Shown: in pieces, positions 81 through 32,043 of the stretch
How positions within the stretch are numbered: the first letter of the stretch is position 1
How the letters are laid out: each line of letters starts with the position of its first letter
Sequence record: NC_005066.1
DNA from: Escherichia phage RB49
Strand: one strand, 5' to 3'
DNA: 64,000 bases
Notes under the pieces: generated by a model
The model's database searches: none
What the model saw: only the letters and a program-made list of their open reading frames with translations
What the model was told of the DNA's origin: nothing
Made by a program: the position numbers and the translations under genes

Positions 81-617
81 TCATCTCTCATTTTTGATAC
101 GTGATTCTAATTGGATCATACGGTCTCGCGTTTGTTTGTATTCTCGGATAGCACCGATCCGGCTAGGCATACCATCCAGTACGCTCTTAATACCTTCTAG
201 GGTAGTAATTTTGGCAATGCTATTATGCAACCCCATCTTATCGATCAACTGAATGTCGTAGGCTTCCATAAGCAGACCCAGGCGTTCTAAAGTTAGGTCT
301 TCTTCTTTTTCTTCTGAATCTGGAATCTTAGGTTCAATAGTAACTTCGGTAAAGAAACGACGCTCACCCGACCAAAACCACACACCGGAACAGCCAATAG
401 GGGATTCTTTTAACGTCATAGAGTCGAAATTACTACCAATAATAGTAATTTCTCTAACATCACCATCATCGTCAAGGTCTTCTACCCTAAACGGGCGACC
501 AGCCAACAAGTCAACAATACATCTGTTAATAGACGACGAAAATTTAGTCAGTTCGGCTTTCGACGCTTCGCATTCAATCTTGTAAGTTTTACCAACTTCC
601 CATTCCATAATAATCAC
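81..617 (-). CDS. hypothetical protein (178 aa)
   Basis: Track ORF, co-oriented with and abutting nrdG; no recognised motif. Confidence 0.55.
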   Translation of the reverse strand: MIIMEWEVGKTYKIECEASKAELTKFSSSINRCIVDLLAGRPFRVEDLDDDGDVREITIIGSNFDSMTLKESPIGCSGVWFWSGERRFFTEVTIEPKIPDSEEKEEDLTLERLGLLMEAYDIQLIDKMGLHNSIAKITTLEGIKSVLDGMPSRIGAIREYKQTRDRMIQLESRIKNER

Positions 618-618
618 C

Positions 619-1128
619 TCAAATAATTTTCACTGGAATACTATTAACAATCTTGTATTGTACTTGATTGTCAGACCCCCGCCACGGCTTCTTCGTTGGC
701 ATATCTTTAATATAACGCCCATCGATGAACATGTCAACTGATTCTACAATTTTTCTTTGCTCATCATTCAATTGGTCAAGGGTATAACCGGACCATAGCC
801 AAATATCTTTATTTGGCATCCATGATTTTACTTCATCGATGATCCGCTGTACACCCTTTAAATTGCGTTTATACAGTGGATCGCCACCTAAGAATGTTAG
901 CCCCTGAATAAAATCAGGTCTAAGCAGATCCAGAATCAATCCCATTGTATCATCGGTGAATGGTTCCCCGTTCTTAGGATTGAGTAGACTGGAATTAAAG
1001 CAACCATCACATGCGTGTGAACATCCGGTAACGTAAAGGGAGACTCTCACTCCCTCACCGTTAACCATATCACAATCTTTAATATCGGCATAGCGTAGTT
1101 TGCCGTATGTATCAGAACTCATATTCAA
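619..1128 (-). CDS. nrdG: anaerobic ribonucleotide reductase activating protein (radical SAM)
   Basis: 169 aa; Cys-rich radical-SAM-like N-terminus (CSHACDGC); adjacent to nrdD as in T4. Confidence 0.88.
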   Translation of the reverse strand: MNMSSDTYGKLRYADIKDCDMVNGEGVRVSLYVTGCSHACDGCFNSSLLNPKNGEPFTDDTMGLILDLLRPDFIQGLTFLGGDPLYKRNLKGVQRIIDEVKSWMPNKDIWLWSGYTLDQLNDEQRKIVESVDMFIDGRYIKDMPTKKPWRGSDNQVQYKIVNSIPVKII

Positions 1129-4985: not shown

Positions 4986-6160
4986 GCACTAACTTTTTTC
5001 TTTACTGCTTTCACCTTCTGGCGAATTGCTCGAATCTCTTCGATCTCTTTTTCAGTCTCTTTAACAATTTCTTTGCGATTCTGAATATCTGTATCGAGAT
5101 TATCATCAAGTTTAGGCAGCATGTCAATCAAGAACTTTTTAAAGTCTTTCAGGTTTCGGATAACAGCACCTTCACCCATTACCGCCACACCAACACCATC
5201 CGGCAGATCACCAAACAGTTTAACCAGTTCAGACAGATGATCATGGTCTTCTAATGCTTCCTCCGGTTCAGATGGCAGTTCAACAAAGTTATAACGTTCA
5301 TCATTGCTGATCAAGTGATACCAGCAAAGCCCGAAAGATTTCGGTGTATATTCTACACCATCAATTTCAACCGCGTCAACACTTCCATAATCATCTACTT
5401 TAGTTACCTTAAATCCTTGTCCCAGCTTTTGAACAATTTCAACAACATGACTTGATACAGTTTCAGCGGTAAACCAATATGGCAAATTATGCTGATTTGG
5501 CTTGTAGCGTTCACCTACTTTAAATCTCTGACCATCCGCTTGCATAGCATGAAATTGTTGTTTCGTGATTTCCGCGAAGTATTCAAATTCGCCACCATCA
5601 AACACACAAGCCCATTGATCACAAAAACGATCTGCCTTAACAGTTTCACCTTTCGCGGTGATCATGGTAGCCGATCCGTGCAATTCTTCTTCAACCAAAA
5701 AGCCATATTCGACAAAATCAACAAGTTTCATGGCTTCTTTGTGCTCTGGGTCATGCTCTCCCCAGAATCGCTTAAATTCTTGCAAACCTTCTGGTGTAAA
5801 CGAATAACATTTACCTTTTTCAAAGTAAGTCGGCATTACATCCTCTTTCTTGTTCATCGCTTCGTATGCCTCTTTTGAGATGCGTTTAAAGTATTTACGC
5901 TCATCGTGCATAATCATAGTAGCCCAATAATAAACGATATCCTCAGCGGAATAAACTACATCTCCAGCTTCAATAGTAATAACATGACCGTGGTCATCTT
6001 TTTCTAATACTTTAAAGCCCTTTTCGACGATTTCAGCAACCCGAATATGACCACGGCGCGAAGCATCGGTCAGAATAATTGAATAGCGAGAAAAGTCTAG
6101 AAACTCATCTTTACCACCTTCACGGAATGCATAGTAATGACCTTCAAAGAATTTAGCCAT
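4982..6160 (-). CDS. hypothetical protein, two-module member of tandem paralog family A (392 aa)
   Basis: Contains GFKVL...ERKYFKRI motif twice; same motif in the next two ORFs. Confidence 0.6.
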   Translation of the reverse strand: MAKFFEGHYYAFREGGKDEFLDFSRYSIILTDASRRGHIRVAEIVEKGFKVLEKDDHGHVITIEAGDVVYSAEDIVYYWATMIMHDERKYFKRISKEAYEAMNKKEDVMPTYFEKGKCYSFTPEGLQEFKRFWGEHDPEHKEAMKLVDFVEYGFLVEEELHGSATMITAKGETVKADRFCDQWACVFDGGEFEYFAEITKQQFHAMQADGQRFKVGERYKPNQHNLPYWFTAETVSSHVVEIVQKLGQGFKVTKVDDYGSVDAVEIDGVEYTPKSFGLCWYHLISNDERYNFVELPSEPEEALEDHDHLSELVKLFGDLPDGVGVAVMGEGAVIRNLKDFKKFLIDMLPKLDDNLDTDIQNRKEIVKETEKEIEEIRAIRQKVKAVKKKVSA

Positions 6161-6220
6161 AATATAATCCTCTCGTTGTTTAAATGGGAGTATCTTACTA
6201 CTCCCGTTTCATCATGTCAA
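6161..6220 (-). promoter_or_regulatory. early promoter cassette with stem-loop
   Basis: rc: TTGACA-17-TAAGAT; palindrome GGGAGTA..TACTCCC. Confidence 0.5.
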
Positions 6221-6783
6221 GCGTTAAATGACTTTTGGATCTCTTTCAGTTCAGCTACTTTATCGGCGCTGAATTTAGCGTAGGTATCATGTCGAATAAT
6301 TTCACTTTCAAGAAAGGTTTCCAGCCGAGATCTATTTTCAATAAGGAACTCTTTCAGGTCTTCCGCGTTCTTGATAAAGATTTTATTGTCAGTAATGTCA
6401 TCTTCAATCGCAAAGGAGATAGAGCGAACTTTACCAAACAAGTTAATCAGATCTTCCAGAGATTCTTCTTTCTTAACTGGTTTCATTTCTTCAAACTGCT
6501 TTTTAGTGATGCGTTTAAAGTATTTGCGCTCGCTTACATCAATCATGATTGACGCACCCTCATAATCATGAGTTTCGACCAAATACACTTTACCCATAAC
6601 ATTAACAGTTAGAACTTTAAAGCCCTTGTGAAGCACACCATACAGGAACTTGTTATGTTGTGGATAGCGTTTAACAAATTCCTCTGCGGACTCAGCATTA
6701 CGGAAAGTGTAATAACGACCTCGTTCAAAAACAGCATCAGTTGAAGACTTAGCCGGATACAATTTATACGTTTTCTGTACCAT
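6217..6783 (-). CDS. hypothetical protein, paralog family A (about 188 aa)
   Basis: GFKVL...ERKYFKRITKKQFEEM motif; start moved to ATG at 6781-6783 with GAGGATTATATT RBS context. Confidence 0.55.
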   Translation of the reverse strand: MVQKTYKLYPAKSSTDAVFERGRYYTFRNAESAEEFVKRYPQHNKFLYGVLHKGFKVLTVNVMGKVYLVETHDYEGASIMIDVSERKYFKRITKKQFEEMKPVKKEESLEDLINLFGKVRSISFAIEDDITDNKIFIKNAEDLKEFLIENRSRLETFLESEIIRHDTYAKFSADKVAELKEIQKSFNA

Positions 6784-6797
6784 AATATAATCCTCTA

Positions 6798-7070
6798 TCA
6801 TTTCACTAATTGAACAGCACGAAACAGAATGCGGTCACACGGAAGAAGCATAAATTCCCAACGCGGATCAAAGTCTTTAGCGGTATATGTTTTCCCATCA
6901 ACCGAGATTTCACTTACATAACCAATAGGTGACAATTTAAGAACAGTAAACCCATTCTTGATGACTTCGTAGGTATCTTTCAAACCTTCGTAGTCATCCT
7001 CTAAGAAGTCTTTACGTGCTTGCTCAGATTTAAAAACATAGGCCACACCGGATTTAAACATCTTACGCAT
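6798..7070 (-). CDS. hypothetical protein, short paralog family A member (90 aa)
   Basis: N-terminal module (YxF...GFTVL) shared with 4982..6160 and 6217..6783. Confidence 0.5.
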   Translation of the reverse strand: MRKMFKSGVAYVFKSEQARKDFLEDDYEGLKDTYEVIKNGFTVLKLSPIGYVSEISVDGKTYTAKDFDPRWEFMLLPCDRILFRAVQLVK

Positions 7071-7130
7071 TGTTGATTCTCCTTCTTGATTAGATGGGAG
7101 TATTTTACTACTCCCATTTCATGCTGTCAA
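7071..7130 (-). promoter_or_regulatory. early promoter cassette with stem-loop
   Basis: rc: TTGACA-17-TAAAAT; palindrome GGGAGTA..TACTCCC. Confidence 0.5.
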
Positions 7131-7133
7131 CTA

Positions 7134-7622
7134 CTATCTTAATCTTTGTATAAATTGTTTCTTATACTTCTTCGTGATCTCTTCTCTTGTATCCGCGTCA
7201 CAATAATCGAAACCTTCTGCGTCCATAATAGCAACCATCTCCGCGCGTGTCAAGCGTGAAAATCGTTTTACTTTATCAACAGCATATTGAGGATGTAAAT
7301 GATTGTTGGTGTAGTCTCCTTTGATGTAATTAACATAGTTTGTAGCCCAAACAACGAAATCAGCACCTAAAGCACCAACACCAAACCGTTTAAAGTCTCC
7401 GGTCAACGATCCTTCTAGGCGGTTGCAACACGAATGAAGCAATCCCCTTACACGGCCTTGCCCTTTCCCATCTAGATCGTGGTCGTGGTCAAGATGGTTT
7501 TTGCTCATATCCTCAAAAAGTGGCAATTGACAAAGGGGGCAAATGCCCCCCTGTTTTTCGAATAGTTCTTGTTTGTACTCTTTAGCACTCTTAGCAGTCA
7601 GTAACATAAATTCACCCTCCAA
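7134..7622 (-). CDS. 49: recombination endonuclease VII (Holliday junction resolvase)
   Basis: 162 aa; CPLCQ..HLDHDHDL..GRVRGLL..CN motif pattern of T4 gp49. Confidence 0.9.
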   Translation of the reverse strand: MEGEFMLLTAKSAKEYKQELFEKQGGICPLCQLPLFEDMSKNHLDHDHDLDGKGQGRVRGLLHSCCNRLEGSLTGDFKRFGVGALGADFVVWATNYVNYIKGDYTNNHLHPQYAVDKVKRFSRLTRAEMVAIMDAEGFDYCDADTREEITKKYKKQFIQRLR

Positions 7623-26888: not shown

Positions 26889-27107
26889 TTATTTATATCG
26901 CTTTCTCTCGCGACGTTTTTGGTCTTCTTCCTTGATAGAGTTAAATGCATCAAAAAGACACATGGCACTAATAATAAACATAACCGTATTTTCTACGATA
27001 TCCCACGGCTTCGCATCAGTACAGATCCCCCAAACGGTAAGAAATGCAAATAAGGCAGAAGAGATCACAAGCATGATACTTGCTAAGATATAAAAAGTCA
27101 TTTTCAT
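26889..27107 (-). CDS. small hydrophobic membrane protein (72 aa)
   Basis: TM helices; basic C-terminus. Confidence 0.4.
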   Translation of the reverse strand: MKMTFYILASIMLVISSALFAFLTVWGICTDAKPWDIVENTVMFIISAMCLFDAFNSIKEEDQKRRERKRYK

Positions 27108-27298
27108 GGTTTTACCTCAATTCTTCGATATTCATCACACATCCACACAGTAAGCAAGAATCCCAGCACATAAGCAACAAAATACGTTAATGCTTCTTCT
27201 GGTTCGGTGCTATGCGCCATCATCAGACCAGCGAGAAAGGTCTTAACAATTACATTTAAAATAATTAGCCACGCAAATAATTTCATAGTTTGCCCCAT
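27104..27298 (-). CDS. small hydrophobic membrane protein (64 aa)
   Basis: TM helices. Confidence 0.4.
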   Translation of the reverse strand: MGQTMKLFAWLIILNVIVKTFLAGLMMAHSTEPEEALTYFVAYVLGFLLTVWMCDEYRRIEVKP

Positions 27299-27522
27299 TT
27301 CGGACGAGTATTTTCAAACTTATACATTACGTAACAATCTCGAATCATCCACGTAACAAGAGCACCAGTCAACACAGACAATACGCAGAAGAAGTAAAAC
27401 GGTCCGGTTGCATTATCAACATGAGCAAGCCAGGTAAAGAAAACACATGCTAAGAATGTAAAGAACATCATAAAGCACAAGAAAGCGAAATATTTTATAC
27501 TACTCATAGCGCCACCATACAA
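27283..27522 (-). CDS. small hydrophobic membrane protein (79 aa)
   Basis: TM helices. Confidence 0.4.
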   Translation of the reverse strand: MYGGAMSSIKYFAFLCFMMFFTFLACVFFTWLAHVDNATGPFYFFCVLSVLTGALVTWMIRDCYVMYKFENTRPKWGKL

Positions 27523-27610
27523 CAGATCATAAGAAACCCCAACGCAATAAGAATTGCGTCAAATTTAGTGAACTCCGGTCCACCTATCAACATCATTCGT
27601 TCTATTTCGT

Positions 27611-27853
27611 TCATAGCGTACAAAGCCATTTAAAAGCACCACATAAAGCGAGCAGAATACTAGGTATAAACGAGACCAAAACAAGTTTGCAAAAATCATC
27701 TAAGGTAACACCGGAATAGCTACCTACTGTAACAACACCGATCATCAGACACAGAAAGAAAACAAATGCAATCATAAACAAAGTATTGCTAAACAGTTTA
27801 GTGATCATTAGACACCCCACGACGATCAATTTCAAAAACTTTTTTATCATCAA
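27611..27853 (-). CDS. small hydrophobic membrane protein (80 aa)
   Basis: TM helices. Confidence 0.4.
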   Translation of the reverse strand: MMIKKFLKLIVVGCLMITKLFSNTLFMIAFVFFLCLMIGVVTVGSYSGVTLDDFCKLVLVSFIPSILLALCGAFKWLCTL

Positions 27854-28001
27854 CGAAGCATGTCACAACTGCCTCGTTGACTTCCGCAAATTGTTGTGTC
27901 ACCCACTTAAGGTCAGAGCGAAACAATGTTCTATTAATAACAAATGTTTTACCGCTCTTATCCTTACCCATAAATTTTGCTTTACCCATATCCAATTCCA
28001 T
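27798..28001 (-). CDS. small hypothetical protein (67 aa)
   Basis: Track ORF. Confidence 0.35.
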   Translation of the reverse strand: MELDMGKAKFMGKDKSGKTFVINRTLFRSDLKWVTQQFAEVNEAVVTCFVDDKKVFEIDRRGVSNDH

Positions 28002-28236: not shown

Positions 28237-28620
28237 TTAAGAATATTTTACTTCGTCTACAATGTCTTTCATGACATTGATTTCCATTCCGGTCAGAACA
28301 CGTTGGAACATGTGCTGCACATACGCTTTCAGGTATTCATTTGATGGCTTGCTATCGAAAGTCTTTTTAGTGTAGTAGTCATCACCGAAAGCTACTGTAA
28401 TTATATTTTCGTCGTCGTTCCAAGCGATATAAGCAAATTTGCCGTTATCCCAGAAGCGAGCACTAATTGCTACTTTTGTTGAATCGAATCCTACTTCGCT
28501 GTGAGATTCAAGAACTACTTGCGTGCCAGTTTCTTTATGAATGTAGTAGCGGGATACTAAGTCAAAGTTACGGGTGTAGTGACATTCGAATTTATCTTTA
28601 AACATCATCATCATTTTGAT
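28237..28620 (-). CDS. hypothetical protein (start uncertain)
   Basis: Track ORF 28237..28683 trimmed to the Met cluster downstream of the cassette at 28621-28680. Confidence 0.45.
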   Translation of the reverse strand: MKMMMMFKDKFECHYTRNFDLVSRYYIHKETGTQVVLESHSEVGFDSTKVAISARFWDNGKFAYIAWNDDENIITVAFGDDYYTKKTFDSKPSNEYLKAYVQHMFQRVLTGMEINVMKDIVDEVKYS

Positions 28621-28680
28621 TCTCCTAAGTGTGTTTCGTTTCGATATGTGCATTATGCTATAGTCGTTTATGGTTGTCAA
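28621..28680 (-). promoter_or_regulatory. early promoter cassette (TTGACA-17-CATAAT)
   Basis: rc of 28652-28680. Confidence 0.5.
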
Positions 28681-28686
28681 CAACTA

Positions 28687-28717
28687 AAAACAAAAAAACC
28701 CCGAAAAATTTTCGGGG
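28687..28717 (-). terminator. rho-independent terminator downstream of 57B/acb1-like gene
   Basis: Hairpin ccccgaaaa-at-tttcgggg with a 7-nt T-run on the minus strand. Confidence 0.7.
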
Positions 28718-28724
28718 TATAAAA

Positions 28725-29195
28725 TTACAGTTTGGTCGTCCACTCCAGGTCTAGATCTTCGACATACTCATGAGATCGGACAATCTCTAAATCGAACTCT
28801 AGGTCAGTGCCAAATTTACGCGCACCAACATCATAAGAAAGCGTGATATGCGGTACATATTCAGGATAATCCCACGTCGCGCCTAAAGCAGTTCCGATAT
28901 CGTGTCTGAATTGCATGTAGTCGCTTTCAAATGCCAACACAAGCGCATTAGTACCGGATTGAGTTTCAAACACTTTCAGATGGCATAGAGAGCCTAAAAA
29001 CTTTTCACCCTCTTCTGGGATAAACGGAACATAGACACGAGAATATAAGATAGTGCTATGCAGTTTATCACGAGGAACGGCATTAGGCAGATCGTAGAAC
29101 TCCTGCAATTTTTCAATGCGGTCTAGTGTATCCTCAGTGAATTTAACCGCCGCATATGTACCTTTAACGGATTCTCGAAACGGGGTCATAATCAA
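28725..29195 (-). CDS. acb1: 2H-phosphoesterase, Acb1-like anti-CBASS nuclease (T4 57B position)
   Basis: 156 aa; two H-x-T/S motifs (KLHSTIL, VPHITLS); immediately precedes 57A and gene 1 as T4 57B does. Confidence 0.65.
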   Translation of the reverse strand: MIMTPFRESVKGTYAAVKFTEDTLDRIEKLQEFYDLPNAVPRDKLHSTILYSRVYVPFIPEEGEKFLGSLCHLKVFETQSGTNALVLAFESDYMQFRHDIGTALGATWDYPEYVPHITLSYDVGARKFGTDLEFDLEIVRSHEYVEDLDLEWTTKL

Positions 29196-29458
29196 GCCTC
29201 CGTGATCAGTTCTACTTCCTCTTTAGCGTCTTCCGCTGCTTCGTCTTTAGGGAGAAGTGCTTTCACTTCTTCGACAATAGCATCAAGGGAAACAGTGCCG
29301 TTTTCGTCTGGCTGAATACCCAGAATGCGTACAAGTTCCATCAATACACGCTCACGATCTTTCAGTTGGCCTTCTAAGAATGCGGCCTTTTCTTGAGTGT
29401 CAAACAGACGTACTTTCAGGACATTAATCATTTGTTCATGCTGATTGGACATATTCAC
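29192..29458 (-). CDS. 57A: tail fiber assembly chaperone gp57A-like
   Basis: 88 aa, acidic coiled-coil-like; position directly upstream of gene 1. Confidence 0.55.
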   Translation of the reverse strand: MNMSNQHEQMINVLKVRLFDTQEKAAFLEGQLKDRERVLMELVRILGIQPDENGTVSLDAIVEEVKALLPKDEAAEDAKEEVELITEA

Positions 29459-29484: not shown

Positions 29485-30141
29485 TTAAATGTTCGCGAGA
29501 ATCGCGCTTTCAAATTCTTCTAATGTGCCATTATTTATGATAACTGTTTCACCGTCAATAGGCAAAATTCCTTTTTCGGTGGAGTGGGTCGATACAATAC
29601 CAGTATCGCGCTGAATATGCAACACCTTAGCACCCATAGCACGCATGAGAGCAATTTCAATAGGCTGACGCACATCAACCACTACAAAATACCCTTCTTC
29701 ATTTTTGCGCTTCATAAACTCATCCACAAAGAGATTACACCAATAAAGCGGATTGATCAAGTTAACCATTATATCAGTACCGAGAGTGGTTAACATGAGA
29801 CGAATAGACCAGACGTTATTATGTTTTTCGCCAATCTCATTAACGACCTTGTAAATCTCAGCCAGACGATCACAAGTAAAGGAACTACCGCCATACTTCG
29901 AATCTAGCATAAGCAGACACTGAATAAACCACTTATGCGCGGTATAGGTATCAATACCTAGATCGGCTTCTCTGTCACGCCCTAACCCGTCAAAGTCAAG
30001 ATAAGTCAGACCTAAGTCTGGTTGACATTCGCATAAGATTTCTTTGATCGGTGCTGCCAGTTGATAACTATGTCCATCAATGATTAACGCGGCAGTGTCT
30101 TTTCCTACTCGCTTTTTACCACAAAGTGCAATCAATTTCAT
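29485..30141 (-). CDS. 1: deoxynucleoside monophosphate kinase
   Basis: 218 aa; MKLIALCGKKRVGKDT P-loop N-terminus as in T4 gp1. Confidence 0.85.
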   Translation of the reverse strand: MKLIALCGKKRVGKDTAALIIDGHSYQLAAPIKEILCECQPDLGLTYLDFDGLGRDREADLGIDTYTAHKWFIQCLLMLDSKYGGSSFTCDRLAEIYKVVNEIGEKHNNVWSIRLMLTTLGTDIMVNLINPLYWCNLFVDEFMKRKNEEGYFVVVDVRQPIEIALMRAMGAKVLHIQRDTGIVSTHSTEKGILPIDGETVIINNGTLEEFESAILANI

Positions 30142-30156
30142 TATATAAGCCTCTTA

Positions 30157-30747
30157 TTACTTTCTAAAAGCAGGGTGCATAGCTTTAATACCTTCCACTC
30201 GCTGACGATCCGCCGCCTGAATTGCAGGGCGAGGAACGATCAGTTGACCATCACGTTCAATGCTCATTGTTTTAAATGGAAGAATTGCAGTACACACCAG
30301 AGATTCATGCATATCATCGGTGTATGTTAACTCAAGTTCCCCCAATTGTGAACACCAACAACCATAAAAGTTAAAAGTGCACACAATGTTACGTCGTTCG
30401 TTGTCCATCATGTGAACTTGAACGGCTTCCGGCATTGAATCCTTCCACGCAGTGGAGTTACCGTTATTGTAGTCTACTATAGAAAGCATCCATGTGTAAA
30501 GGTTTAGATAGCTTTCCAAATGCTCATCGACAATAAACCGGACTACCAACGGGTCAAACTCCACATGACTGGAAGGATAATCTGCAATAGCCAAACCATA
30601 TTGACCAGCAACTTGCTTAGTCGGTGGAATGGTTATAGCCGGAAGCGTAACACCTTGAGCATTTAAAGTAAAGCCTTTTGTTAGCTGTCCATCTGGAATA
30701 TTGATCTGCCAGTTGCTAGGGTTAGCATAGTTAAAGAGATTAGACAT
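30157..30747 (-). CDS. 3: tail completion / sheath stabiliser protein gp3-like
   Basis: 196 aa; assigned by synteny between gene 1 and gene 2. Confidence 0.5.
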   Translation of the reverse strand: MSNLFNYANPSNWQINIPDGQLTKGFTLNAQGVTLPAITIPPTKQVAGQYGLAIADYPSSHVEFDPLVVRFIVDEHLESYLNLYTWMLSIVDYNNGNSTAWKDSMPEAVQVHMMDNERRNIVCTFNFYGCWCSQLGELELTYTDDMHESLVCTAILPFKTMSIERDGQLIVPRPAIQAADRQRVEGIKAMHPAFRK

Positions 30748-30936
30748 TACTGATTCCTCAAATGAAAATATTTATTAACAATTGTCGCTTTGCGACGTGC
30801 CGTAGGCACTGACTAATTTTTAACCGAAACAAATTTTTATTATTCTAAAGATCTTTCTTCGTTTTGGTTATGTTTTAACCAATAACTATATTTTTATACA
30901 GTAATAAATAAAACGGGTACTATACGAGGACTTCTT

Positions 30937-31191
30937 ATGACAGAAGACATTTTGTTAAAACTCTATGATCGTTTGGATAACGAATTAGCAACATTGCGGG
31001 GTGAAGTTCTCTATTTGTCTAAATGCAATACAGATCTGCTTAAGCAGATTGCAGAAAGGGATGATCAAATAAAATCCCTTTCAGGTGCATTACGTGATCG
31101 CGACAAGGCATTAGAGATTTTACAGCGTGTTACCAATAAGGAAGAATTAAAAGACTTCTTACATGGTTATGCTCATGCTATCGATCTATAA
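30937..31191 (+). CDS. small coiled-coil hypothetical protein (84 aa), opposite orientation to neighbours
   Basis: GAGGA RBS; upstream TAATAAATA late-promoter-like box; hairpin at 31198-31216 downstream. Confidence 0.4.
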   Translation: MTEDILLKLYDRLDNELATLRGEVLYLSKCNTDLLKQIAERDDQIKSLSGALRDRDKALEILQRVTNKEELKDFLHGYAHAIDL

Positions 31192-31216
31192 TAAAAAAGC
31201 CCGTCATTGACGGGCT
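31192..31216 (-). terminator. hairpin terminator downstream of gp2
   Basis: agcccgtca-t-tgacgggct preceded by plus-strand A-run (T-run on the minus strand). Confidence 0.55.
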
Positions 31217-31221
31217 TAATG

Positions 31222-32043
31222 TTATGCATCCTTCCAAACTTTCCTTGCGTCGTATTTCTTGCCTTTTGACATAAACTGATATGTAGGCATATAGATAATA
31301 TTGCTCCAGTCTTTCGGGCTAATCTCAACAAGTTTTGTTTTAATGTGTCCCGGTAGATATGCTTTGATCATGTGGTCACTACCACGCATACCTTTTACAT
31401 CGCTCCATTTGATTTTTAAGCGTGTTTTATTGCTCAAGGTAGGAGTAGATGCATATTGCTTTAAAAGTGCCTCTAAAAACTGCTGACGGGCTTTAGGAGT
31501 TACATAGTGTAAGTTAAGACCCAGCATCACAGTATTACCCGCCTTTGTCTTAGAATCACCCAGACAAATGATCAGCGGGAAAACATCCCAATATGGCAAA
31601 GTGTCTTTATACTTAGCATCATACATAAAGGTATAGATTCGCCCTACTTGCGGTTTTACAATCTGGTGTCCCTTTATTCCCGCTTTTATTGTTTTAGTAA
31701 ACCACTCCTGTGATTTTTCTTTAGGACGACTCTTTGATACAGCACGCATAGACGCACGAAAATCATTAATCATCATCATTGCACGTTGCTGCTTATTGAG
31801 ACCCTTTGCTCCTTTCCCTTTTAGTTTTTCAACTTCTATTGCTGTTTTAATTTCGCTGGCATAACGAGACATACTTTTAGTGAAAGTCGCATAGGCTATT
31901 CCCTTAGAATCTGCAAATGCTTTAGCTGTCATGCCTTTGGCTTTTGCTTTCGCAAATTCTACACCCAATTCGACCCACTGTTTAGACTTTCGTTTTTGGG
32001 GAGACGGCTTTTCGTCTTCTGTGATTATTTCAAATACGCTCAT
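31222..32043 (-). CDS. 2: DNA end protector protein gp2-like
   Basis: 273 aa, basic; synteny 3-2-4 and size match T4 gp2. Confidence 0.6.
   Translation of the reverse strand: MSVFEIITEDEKPSPQKRKSKQWVELGVEFAKAKAKGMTAKAFADSKGIAYATFTKSMSRYASEIKTAIEVEKLKGKGAKGLNKQQRAMMMINDFRASMRAVSKSRPKEKSQEWFTKTIKAGIKGHQIVKPQVGRIYTFMYDAKYKDTLPYWDVFPLIICLGDSKTKAGNTVMLGLNLHYVTPKARQQFLEALLKQYASTPTLSNKTRLKIKWSDVKGMRGSDHMIKAYLPGHIKTKLVEISPKDWSNIIYMPTYQFMSKGKKYDARKVWKDA

What the first reader, a model, noticed from the sequence alone, without database searches (positions are those of the whole stretch)
28725..29195. Acb1-like 2H phosphoesterase at the 57B position
A 156-aa protein with two H-x-T/S motifs (HSTIL, HITLS) lies directly upstream of 57A and gene 1. 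This is the position of T4 gene 57B, which encodes the anti-CBASS nuclease Acb1 that degrades cyclic oligonucleotide signals. The phage therefore probably carries a CBASS counter-defence.
Basis: partly seen in the sequence, partly recalled or inferred. Interest (0 to 1): 0.5.

Follow-up and report, generated by a model that had tools for sequence, protein, structure and literature searches.

The report
Known phage Acb1 anti-CBASS gene (57B)

Summary
The ORF is real. It lies at 28725..29195 on the minus strand. The likely start is the ATG at 29189, giving 154 aa rather than 156. The window is a Krischvirus (RB49/JSE-like T4 relative, 98.6% nt identity to RB49).

The protein matches Pfam PF23474 "Acb1" end to end (174 bits against a cut-off of 27). 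It matches the crystallised FBB1 Acb1 (7T26/7T27) at E 1.8e-43, and is 47% identical over its full length to T4 Acb1, the founding enzyme. An AlphaFold model (pLDDT 91) superposes on 7T26 at 0.9 Å.

All functionally defined T4 residues have equivalents: the HxT/HxT tetrad (H44, T46, H114, T116), four base-stacking aromatics (Y12, F74, Y108, W150), the adenine-reading Glu (E144) and the C-terminal lid. Gene order 3, 1, 57A, 57B is the same as in T4, and an intrinsic terminator follows 57B.

The exact sequence is already in UniRef as "Anti-CBASS protein Acb1" of Krischvirus (RB49 Q7Y455). All 57 matching Krischvirus records in the phage collection carry the gene, mostly labelled "hypothetical protein" or "RNA ligase".

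Activity of this ortholog is inferred, not shown. Verdict: interpretation supported, already known, low interest.

The parts
28725..29189 (-). acb1 (gene 57B) coding sequence: 154 aa plus a TAA stop. HxT motifs at H44-S45-T46 and H114-I115-T116.
   Evidence: ORF; ATG start and Shine-Dalgarno. Pfam PF23474 at 174 bits. PDB 7T26 at E 1.8e-43. 47% identity to T4 Acb1. Annotated the same way in JSE.
29197..29201 (-). GGAGG ribosome-binding site, 7 nt upstream of the acb1 ATG and inside the end of 57A.
   Evidence: Read directly from the sequence. It supports the ATG at 29189 over the TTG at 29195.
28688..28718 (-). Intrinsic terminator directly after acb1: ACCCCGAAAATTTTTCGGGGT followed by TTTTTTGTTT.
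   Evidence: Terminator scan: 9-bp stem with 5 GC pairs plus a T run. A terminator is annotated at the same place in phages G2494 and TB34.
29192..29452 (-). Gene 57A (tail fiber assembly chaperone), immediately 5' of acb1. Its stop lies 2 nt before the acb1 ATG.
   Evidence: Pfam GP57 at 27.4 bits and PHROG 1002 at E 3e-26. JSE annotates 261 nt here.
29485..30141 (-). Gene 1 (dNMP kinase).
   Evidence: Pfam DNMK at 230 bits; JSE annotation.
30157..30747 (-). Gene 3 (tail tube terminator / sheath stabiliser), the first gene of the co-oriented run 3-1-57A-57B.
   Evidence: PHROG 45 tail tube at E 6e-43; JSE annotation.

Best explanation
The gene encodes the Krischvirus ortholog of T4 Acb1 (gp57B), a small metal-independent 2H phosphodiesterase.

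Inferred mechanism, taken from T4 and FBB1 Acb1:
- During infection the enzyme binds 3'-5'-linked cyclic di- and trinucleotides that contain at least one adenosine: 3'3'-cGAMP, cUA, cAAA, cAAG, and also 2'3'-c-di-AMP.
- The bases are stacked between Y12, F74, Y108 and the lid tryptophan W150. The adenine N6 is read by E144.
- The H44/T46 and H114/T116 tetrad drives attack of the adenosine 2'-OH on the 3'-5' bond. The ring opens through a 2',3'-cyclic phosphate intermediate to a linear 3'-phosphate product.
- Removing the second messenger keeps CBASS effectors from being activated, so abortive infection is avoided.

Shown here: the family, fold, residue conservation, synteny and gene integrity. 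Inferred: catalysis and the anti-CBASS effect in this phage.

The gene is the last of the run 3-1-57A-57B. It sits close behind 57A (2-nt gap, with its ribosome-binding site inside 57A) and is followed by a strong terminator. It is therefore probably read from the same transcripts as these morphogenesis and nucleotide-metabolism genes.
For: - **Family.** Pfam Acb1 PF23474 matches residues 9-152 to profile positions 1-143 of 144, at 174.4 bits against a cut-off of 27. All 64 database homologs carry PF23474.
- **Solved structure, by sequence.** phmmer against the PDB returns only FBB1 Acb1 7T26/7T27, at E 1.8e-43.
- **T4 Acb1.** BLASTP to T4 57B/Acb1: 47% identity over 154 residues, E 3e-47.
- **Predicted fold.** The AlphaFold2 model has pLDDT 91.3 and pTM 0.84. 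Its best PDB matches are 7T26 (TM 0.97 by target length, rmsd 0.9 Å) and 7T27. The next best is the phage BCSR5 2H PDE, and only then LigT.
- **Catalytic residues.** H44, T46, H114 and T116 are invariant across 62 family members. Y12 and E144 are at least 90% conserved.
- **T4 functional residues.** The residues named in PMC9117128 map as follows: Y12 to Y12, W74 to F74, F107 to Y108, E141 to E144, W147 to W150, and H44/T46/H113/T115 to H44/T46/H114/T116.
- **Synteny.** Same order as T4: 3, 1, 57A, 57B.
- **Signs of purifying selection.** Seven of the 8 nucleotide differences to phage G2494 are synonymous, and both differences to JSE are synonymous. The exact protein was seen on 316 contigs.
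- **Experimental precedent.** All 10 Acb1 proteins tested by Hobbs et al. (T4 plus 9 homologs) cleaved 3'3'-cGAMP and cAAA. T4 Δacb1 lost more than 300-fold in replication on a CBASS host.
- **Existing name.** UniRef names this exact sequence Anti-CBASS protein Acb1.
Against: - No biochemical or genetic test of this ortholog, or of any Krischvirus Acb1, was found.
- An RB49-type phage (G2494) whose Acb1 differs only by D129N was in the Hobbs lysate screen. Its per-phage result is in a figure that could not be read.
- At 47% identity to T4, with two of the stacking aromatics changed (W to F, F to Y), the substrate range could differ in detail. The FBB1 enzyme, which cleaved its bound 3'3'-cGAMP analogue in the crystal, also has F and Y at these two positions.
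- The expression signals are not resolved. There is no exact T4-type late promoter box TATAAATA on the minus strand between 28.7 and 31.2 kb.
Confidence: 0.93

Rival explanations
1. The protein is a general LigT-type enzyme (2'-5' RNA ligase / 2',3'-cyclic phosphodiesterase) that acts in RNA or tRNA repair. This is what the widespread 'RNA ligase' annotation of 57B in phage records implies.
For: PHROG 755 is labelled 'RNA ligase', and many GenBank/RefSeq records carry that name. There are weak sub-threshold Pfam hits to 2_5_RNA_ligase2 (19.4 bits against a cut-off of 27) and LigT_PEase (14.1 against 23.3). LigT structures appear as distant fold matches.
Against: The LigT-family Pfam hits fall below their thresholds, while Acb1 scores 174 bits. 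LigT structures align at only 10-13% identity, TM about 0.5 and rmsd 6-8 Å, against 0.9 Å for Acb1. The 'RNA ligase' label reflects only the shared 2H superfamily. T4 gp57B was shown experimentally to be a cyclic-oligonucleotide nuclease. The Acb1-specific lid tryptophan and adenine-reading Glu are present.
Confidence: 0.03
2. The protein is a true Acb1-family enzyme, but its substrate range or biological target has shifted from T4's. For example it might be tuned to cA3 or type III CRISPR signals, or might avoid 2'3'-c-di-AMP so as not to trigger Panoptes guard systems.
For: It is only 47% identical to T4 Acb1, with W74F and F107Y changes at base-stacking positions. Work on other phage 2H PDEs shows that the enzyme core sets selectivity, and that a relative (PDE-9) spares 2'3'-c-di-AMP and so evades Panoptes. 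Acb1 is a liability against Panoptes types I and II.
Against: FBB1 Acb1 has the same F and Y at these positions and cleaved its bound 3'3'-cGAMP analogue in the crystal. All 9 additional Acb1 homologs tested cleaved cGAMP and cAAA. Nothing in the sequence points to a change in the pocket. This is speculation that the data do not exclude.
Confidence: 0.08
3. The gene is a decaying or inactive remnant, no longer functional in this phage.
For: Two Krischvirus GenBank records carry frameshifted copies: Cognac and TB34. Natural acb1 loss is documented in a T4-like phage, Bas43.
Against: The window's copy is full length, with every catalytic and binding residue intact. It is identical in protein sequence to the JSE copy and to the RB49 and Phi1 accessions listed for the exact sequence. 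Differences among close relatives are mostly synonymous. The ribosome-binding site and terminator are intact.
Confidence: 0.01

Closest known systems
T4 Acb1 (gp57B, NP_049750.1), the founding anti-CBASS nuclease (Hobbs et al. 2022, PMC9117128)
   Same: Same Pfam family. 47% identity over the whole length, with nearly the same size (154 against 152 aa). Same HxT/HxT tetrad, lid tryptophan and adenine-reading Glu. Same genomic slot after 3-1-57A.
   Different: W74 is F and F107 is Y, both still aromatic. There is a 1-aa and a 2-aa indel. The downstream neighbour is not ipI but a 125-aa protein of unknown function (phrog_15253).
Erwinia phage FBB1 Acb1 (PDB 7T26 apo, 7T27 with 3'3'-cGAMP)
   Same: About 52-53% identity. 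The predicted structure superposes at 0.9 Å (TM 0.97). It has the same F and Y at the two stacking positions where T4 differs.
   Different: Different host genus. A 2-residue indel lies in the loop before the last strand.
Burkholderia phage BCSR5 2H phosphodiesterase ('2H PDE-9', PDB 9Q2G/9Q2Y)
   Same: Phage 2H phosphodiesterase that degrades CBASS signals. It is the second-best structural match (E 1e-7, TM about 0.7).
   Different: Only 15-18% identity. Its lid is N-terminal, whereas the window protein has the C-terminal Acb1 lid. It spares 2'3'-c-di-AMP.
LigT / 2'-5' RNA ligase and cellular 2H cyclic phosphodiesterases (e.g. E. coli LigT, PDB 5LDI)
   Same: Same 2H superfamily fold with two HxT/S motifs.
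   Different: 10-13% identity and TM about 0.5. The Pfam hits are below threshold. These enzymes are larger, lack the Acb1 lid and act on different substrates.

Membership tests
Acb1 (Pfam PF23474; anti-CBASS 2H phosphodiesterase) | Full-length match to the family profile above the curated threshold | tested here: met
   174.4 bits against a cut-off of 27, with profile positions 1-143 of 144 covered.
Acb1 (Pfam PF23474; anti-CBASS 2H phosphodiesterase) | Catalytic HxT/HxT tetrad (T4 H44, T46, H113, T115) | tested here: met
   H44-S-T46 and H114-I-T116 are present, and these columns are invariant in 62 homologs.
Acb1 (Pfam PF23474; anti-CBASS 2H phosphodiesterase) | Aromatic residues that stack on the nucleobases (T4 Y12, W74, F107, W147) and the adenine-N6-reading Glu (T4 E141) | tested here: met
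   Y12, F74, Y108, W150 and E144 align to these positions. F and Y are also the residues in the crystallised FBB1 enzyme. Residue roles are taken from PMC9117128.
Acb1 (Pfam PF23474; anti-CBASS 2H phosphodiesterase) | Compact 2H phosphoesterase fold with a flexible C-terminal lid | tested here: met
   The predicted model has pLDDT 91.3. It matches 7T26 at TM 0.97 and rmsd 0.9 Å. The last residues (151-154) are low-confidence, as expected for a mobile lid. This rests on a prediction, not a solved structure.
Acb1 (Pfam PF23474; anti-CBASS 2H phosphodiesterase) | Position of gene 57B in T4-like genomes (after 3, 1, 57A) | tested here: met
   The order is the same in the window, JSE and T4.
Acb1 (Pfam PF23474; anti-CBASS 2H phosphodiesterase) | Metal-independent cleavage of 3'3'-cGAMP, cUA, cAAA and cAAG, but not cGG or cA4 | not testable with these tools
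   Shown for T4 Acb1 and, for cGAMP and cAAA, for 9 homologs. Not known for this ortholog.
Acb1 (Pfam PF23474; anti-CBASS 2H phosphodiesterase) | Protects the phage from CBASS in vivo | not testable with these tools
   Shown for T4 Δacb1, with a defect of more than 300-fold. No Krischvirus data were found.
LigT / 2'-5' RNA ligase (Pfam PF13563, PF02834) | Match to the family profile above the curated threshold | tested here: not met
   19.4 bits against 27, and 14.1 bits against 23.3. Structural similarity exists only at the superfamily level.

The most novel reading that the evidence does not exclude
The Krischvirus Acb1 may have a substrate profile that differs usefully from T4's, for example sparing the Panoptes decoy 2'3'-c-di-AMP. 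Alternatively, the stretch just downstream of it may be an anti-defence island holding new inhibitors. That stretch contains a 125-aa protein of unknown function, a 52-aa protein, Dmd, and a string of small membrane-like proteins. Neither idea is supported by anything beyond sequence divergence and gene adjacency.
Probability: 0.08. Interest if true: 0.5.

Novelty: already known. Interest (0 to 1): 0.12.

Why it matters
The result confirms that RB49/JSE-type coliphages carry an intact Acb1. Several of these phages are used or proposed for therapy. An intact Acb1 predicts resistance to adenosine-containing CBASS signalling, and also possible sensitivity to Panoptes-type guard systems that sense loss of cyclic nucleotides.

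The practical point is about annotation. None of the 57 matching Krischvirus records in the phage collection calls the gene Acb1. They say "hypothetical protein", "gp57B conserved hypothetical protein" or "RNA ligase". Otherwise this is a routine identification of a gene family described in 2022.

Tried and rejected
- **TTG start at 29195 (156 aa).** Rejected in favour of the ATG at 29189, on ribosome-binding-site spacing, overlap with the 57A stop, and the RefSeq annotation.
- **"RNA ligase" (PHROG and RefSeq label).** Rejected as a superfamily-level misnomer.
- **NCBIfam.** No model matches, so PGAP has no specific name for the protein.
- **Experimental data on Krischvirus or RB49 Acb1.** None was found. 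Supplementary Table 1 of Hobbs 2022 lists an RB49-type phage (G2494) in the lysate screen, but the per-phage outcome is only in a figure.
- **A second anti-CBASS gene (T4 Vs.4/Acb2) and ipI in the window.** tblastn gave only noise, with E of 2 or higher. This says nothing about the roughly 100 kb of the genome outside the window.
- **Exact T4 late-promoter box upstream of the gene run.** None was found on the minus strand between 28.7 and 31.2 kb. Only a one-mismatch box, AATAAATA, lies at 30776..30769, about 20 nt before the gene 3 start. Expression timing is left unresolved.

Full report
**What is there.** The window holds an ORF at 28725..29195 on the minus strand, 156 codons counted from a TTG. 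Read on the minus strand, the sequence around the start is GGAGGCTTGATTATG. The TTG overlaps the TGA stop of the preceding gene and sits 1 nt after the GGAGG. The ATG at 29189 sits 7 nt after it. RefSeq annotates the ATG form, 154 aa, in phage JSE, and I use that numbering. Terminators are annotated at the same site in phages G2494 and TB34.

**Which genome.** A 2.6-kb stretch around the gene is 98.1-98.6% identical to the 25 best of 57 matching phage records. All listed matches that carry a taxonomy line are Krischvirus (RB49, JSE, Phi1 and relatives). All 57 records contain the gene. The protein is identical to that of JSE. It differs by one residue (D129N) from that of vB_EcoM_G2494. An exact look-up finds the sequence on 316 contigs under the accessions of RB49, Phi1 and JSE. 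UniRef calls it [quoted passage not shown].

**Family assignment.**
- Pfam PF23474 (Acb1) matches residues 9-152 to profile positions 1-143 of 144, at 174.4 bits against a gathering score of 27. The related LigT-type families stay below their thresholds.
- PHROG 755, to which the protein belongs (E 1e-54), is labelled "RNA ligase". That explains the common misannotation.
- Against all PDB sequences the only hit is FBB1 Acb1 (7T26/7T27), at E 1.8e-43.
- Against T4 gp57B (NP_049750.1), the protein in which the activity was discovered, identity is 47% over the whole length, E 3e-47.
- All 64 homologs found in the large protein database carry PF23474.
- An AlphaFold2 model built on 62 of these sequences has mean pLDDT 91.3. 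Confidence is low only for residues 1-5 and 151-154.
- Foldseek places 7T26 first (TM 0.97 normalised by target length, rmsd 0.9 Å, 52% identity) and 7T27 second. The phage BCSR5 2H phosphodiesterase follows, and only then E. coli LigT and other cellular 2H enzymes, at TM about 0.5.

**Functional residues.** Hobbs et al. 2022 (PMC9117128) describe three groups of residues: an HxT/HxT catalytic tetrad (H44, T46, H113, T115), stacking aromatics (Y12, W74, F107, W147), and E141 contacting the adenine N6. Residues 145-152 form a lid. These numbers fit the T4 sequence. In the pairwise alignment they correspond to H44, T46, H114, T116, Y12, F74, Y108, W150 and E144 of the window protein. F and Y at the two changed positions are also what the crystallised FBB1 enzyme has. 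Across 62 family members H44, T46, H114 and T116 are invariant, and Y12 and E144 are at least 90% conserved.

**Context.** On the minus strand the order is gene 3 (30157..30747), gene 1 dNMP kinase (29485..30141), 57A (29192..29452), 57B/acb1 (28725..29189), then the terminator. T4 has the same order. In the direction of transcription acb1 is the last gene of the run.

The gap between 57A and acb1 is 2 nt, and the acb1 ribosome-binding site lies inside 57A. Co-transcription and close translational succession are therefore likely, though this is inference. I found no exact T4-type late promoter box on this strand between 28.7 and 31.2 kb. A one-mismatch box, AATAAATA, lies about 20 nt upstream of gene 3, and several sigma-70-like matches lie inside the genes. 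Expression timing is unresolved.

In T4 the gene after 57B is ipI. Here there is no ipI homolog. Instead a 125-aa protein of unknown function follows (phrog_15253), with its own sigma-70-like promoter match. After it come a 52-aa protein and Dmd.

**Mechanism.** By homology, the protein should be a metal-independent phosphodiesterase. It would open 3'-5'-linked cyclic di- and trinucleotides that contain adenosine, cleaving 3' of adenosine through a 2',3'-cyclic phosphate intermediate. This would remove the CBASS second messenger before effectors fire. T4 Acb1 also degrades 2'3'-c-di-AMP and cA3. That makes Acb1-carrying phages targets of the Panoptes guard systems.

- Shown here: membership, fold, active-site conservation and gene integrity.
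- Inferred: catalysis, substrate range and in vivo effect.
- Grounds for the inference: all ten Acb1 proteins tested by Hobbs et al. were active, and T4 Δacb1 lost more than 300-fold in replication on a CBASS host.

**Rivals.**
- A LigT-type RNA ligase or repair role is what many records imply. It fails the family test and fits only at superfamily level.
- A shifted substrate profile cannot be excluded at 47% identity, but nothing specific supports it.
- A decayed gene is excluded for this copy. Two deposited Krischvirus genomes (Cognac, TB34) do have frameshifted copies. The Cognac 1-nt deletion lies in a run of five T (read from the window sequence). The TB34 copy has two separate 1-nt insertions. 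Whether these are real losses or sequencing errors is open.

**Literature check.** No paper in the searchable library links Acb1 or CBASS with RB49 or Krischvirus. Supplementary Table 1 of Hobbs et al. shows that an RB49-type phage, vB_EcoM-G2494, was among the 57 phages whose infected lysates were screened. The per-phage result is in a figure that I could not read.

**Verdict.** The gene is a well-conserved, already named member of a family described in 2022, sitting in its expected place. It is of low interest as a discovery. The only practical value is correcting the "RNA ligase" and "hypothetical protein" labels in Krischvirus records.

Noticed in passing
window 27798..28001 (-): A Dmd homolog lies only about 0.7 kb downstream of acb1 (Pfam PF17587 at 56 bits; PHROG 2102 at E 3e-31). 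Dmd is the phage antitoxin against the RnlA/LsoA toxins (role stated from prior knowledge of the T4 protein, not checked here). It is separated from acb1 by a 125-aa and a 52-aa protein of unknown function. No dmd is annotated next to 57B in the T4 stretch examined. This looks like a small anti-defence neighbourhood.
   Followed up: partly
window 28237..28614 (-): The slot that holds ipI in T4 (just after 57B) is occupied by a 125-aa protein of unknown function. It belongs to phrog_15253 and has only a sub-threshold Pfam Gp30.7 hit at 16 bits. It has its own sigma-70-like promoter match (TTGACA-17-CATAAT, 28680..28652). There is no ipI homolog in the window (tblastn).
   Followed up: partly
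window 19983..20812 (-): Between regB and vs.6, where T4 has vs.3, vs.4 (Acb2) and vs.5, there are three adjacent small ORFs of 111, 86 and 64 aa. They appear to share a 'C-x-H-L-x-x-x-x-W' motif and have no Pfam match. A tblastn of the window with T4 Vs.4/Acb2 found no homolog.
   Followed up: partly
L004 (phage Cognac MZ504877) 301..764; L005 (phage TB34 OX001802) 301..767: Two deposited Krischvirus genomes have frameshifted acb1. Cognac has a 1-nt deletion in a T5 run and is annotated as two fragments. TB34 has two 1-nt insertions. These could be sequencing errors or natural loss, like the acb1 nonsense mutation that lets Bas43 escape Panoptes.
   Followed up: partly
window 30748..31221, compared with L001 (JSE) 5544..7217: JSE carries an extra 1143-nt 'endonuclease' gene between gene 3 and gene 2, which the window lacks. 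The window has only the 84-aa plus-strand ORF 30937..31191 (phrog_17832, unknown function) before gp2 (31222..32043). This is a mobile-endonuclease presence/absence polymorphism.
   Followed up: no
window 26889..27853 (-): A run of at least four overlapping small ORFs (64-80 aa, with a 41-aa one annotated in JSE). They have hydrophobic, membrane-like sequences. Each belongs to a PHROG of unknown function (15168, 15717, 15290, 17225). They lie just downstream of dmd.
   Followed up: no
window 18040..18495 (-) and 20834..21532 (-): A macro-domain protein (Tk.4 homolog, Pfam Macro at 29 bits) and an RlaP-type nucleotidyltransferase (NrdC.11 homolog, Pfam PF10127 at 54 bits) lie in the same early-gene region. 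Both are of a kind sometimes tied to defence or counter-defence. They were not examined further.
   Followed up: no
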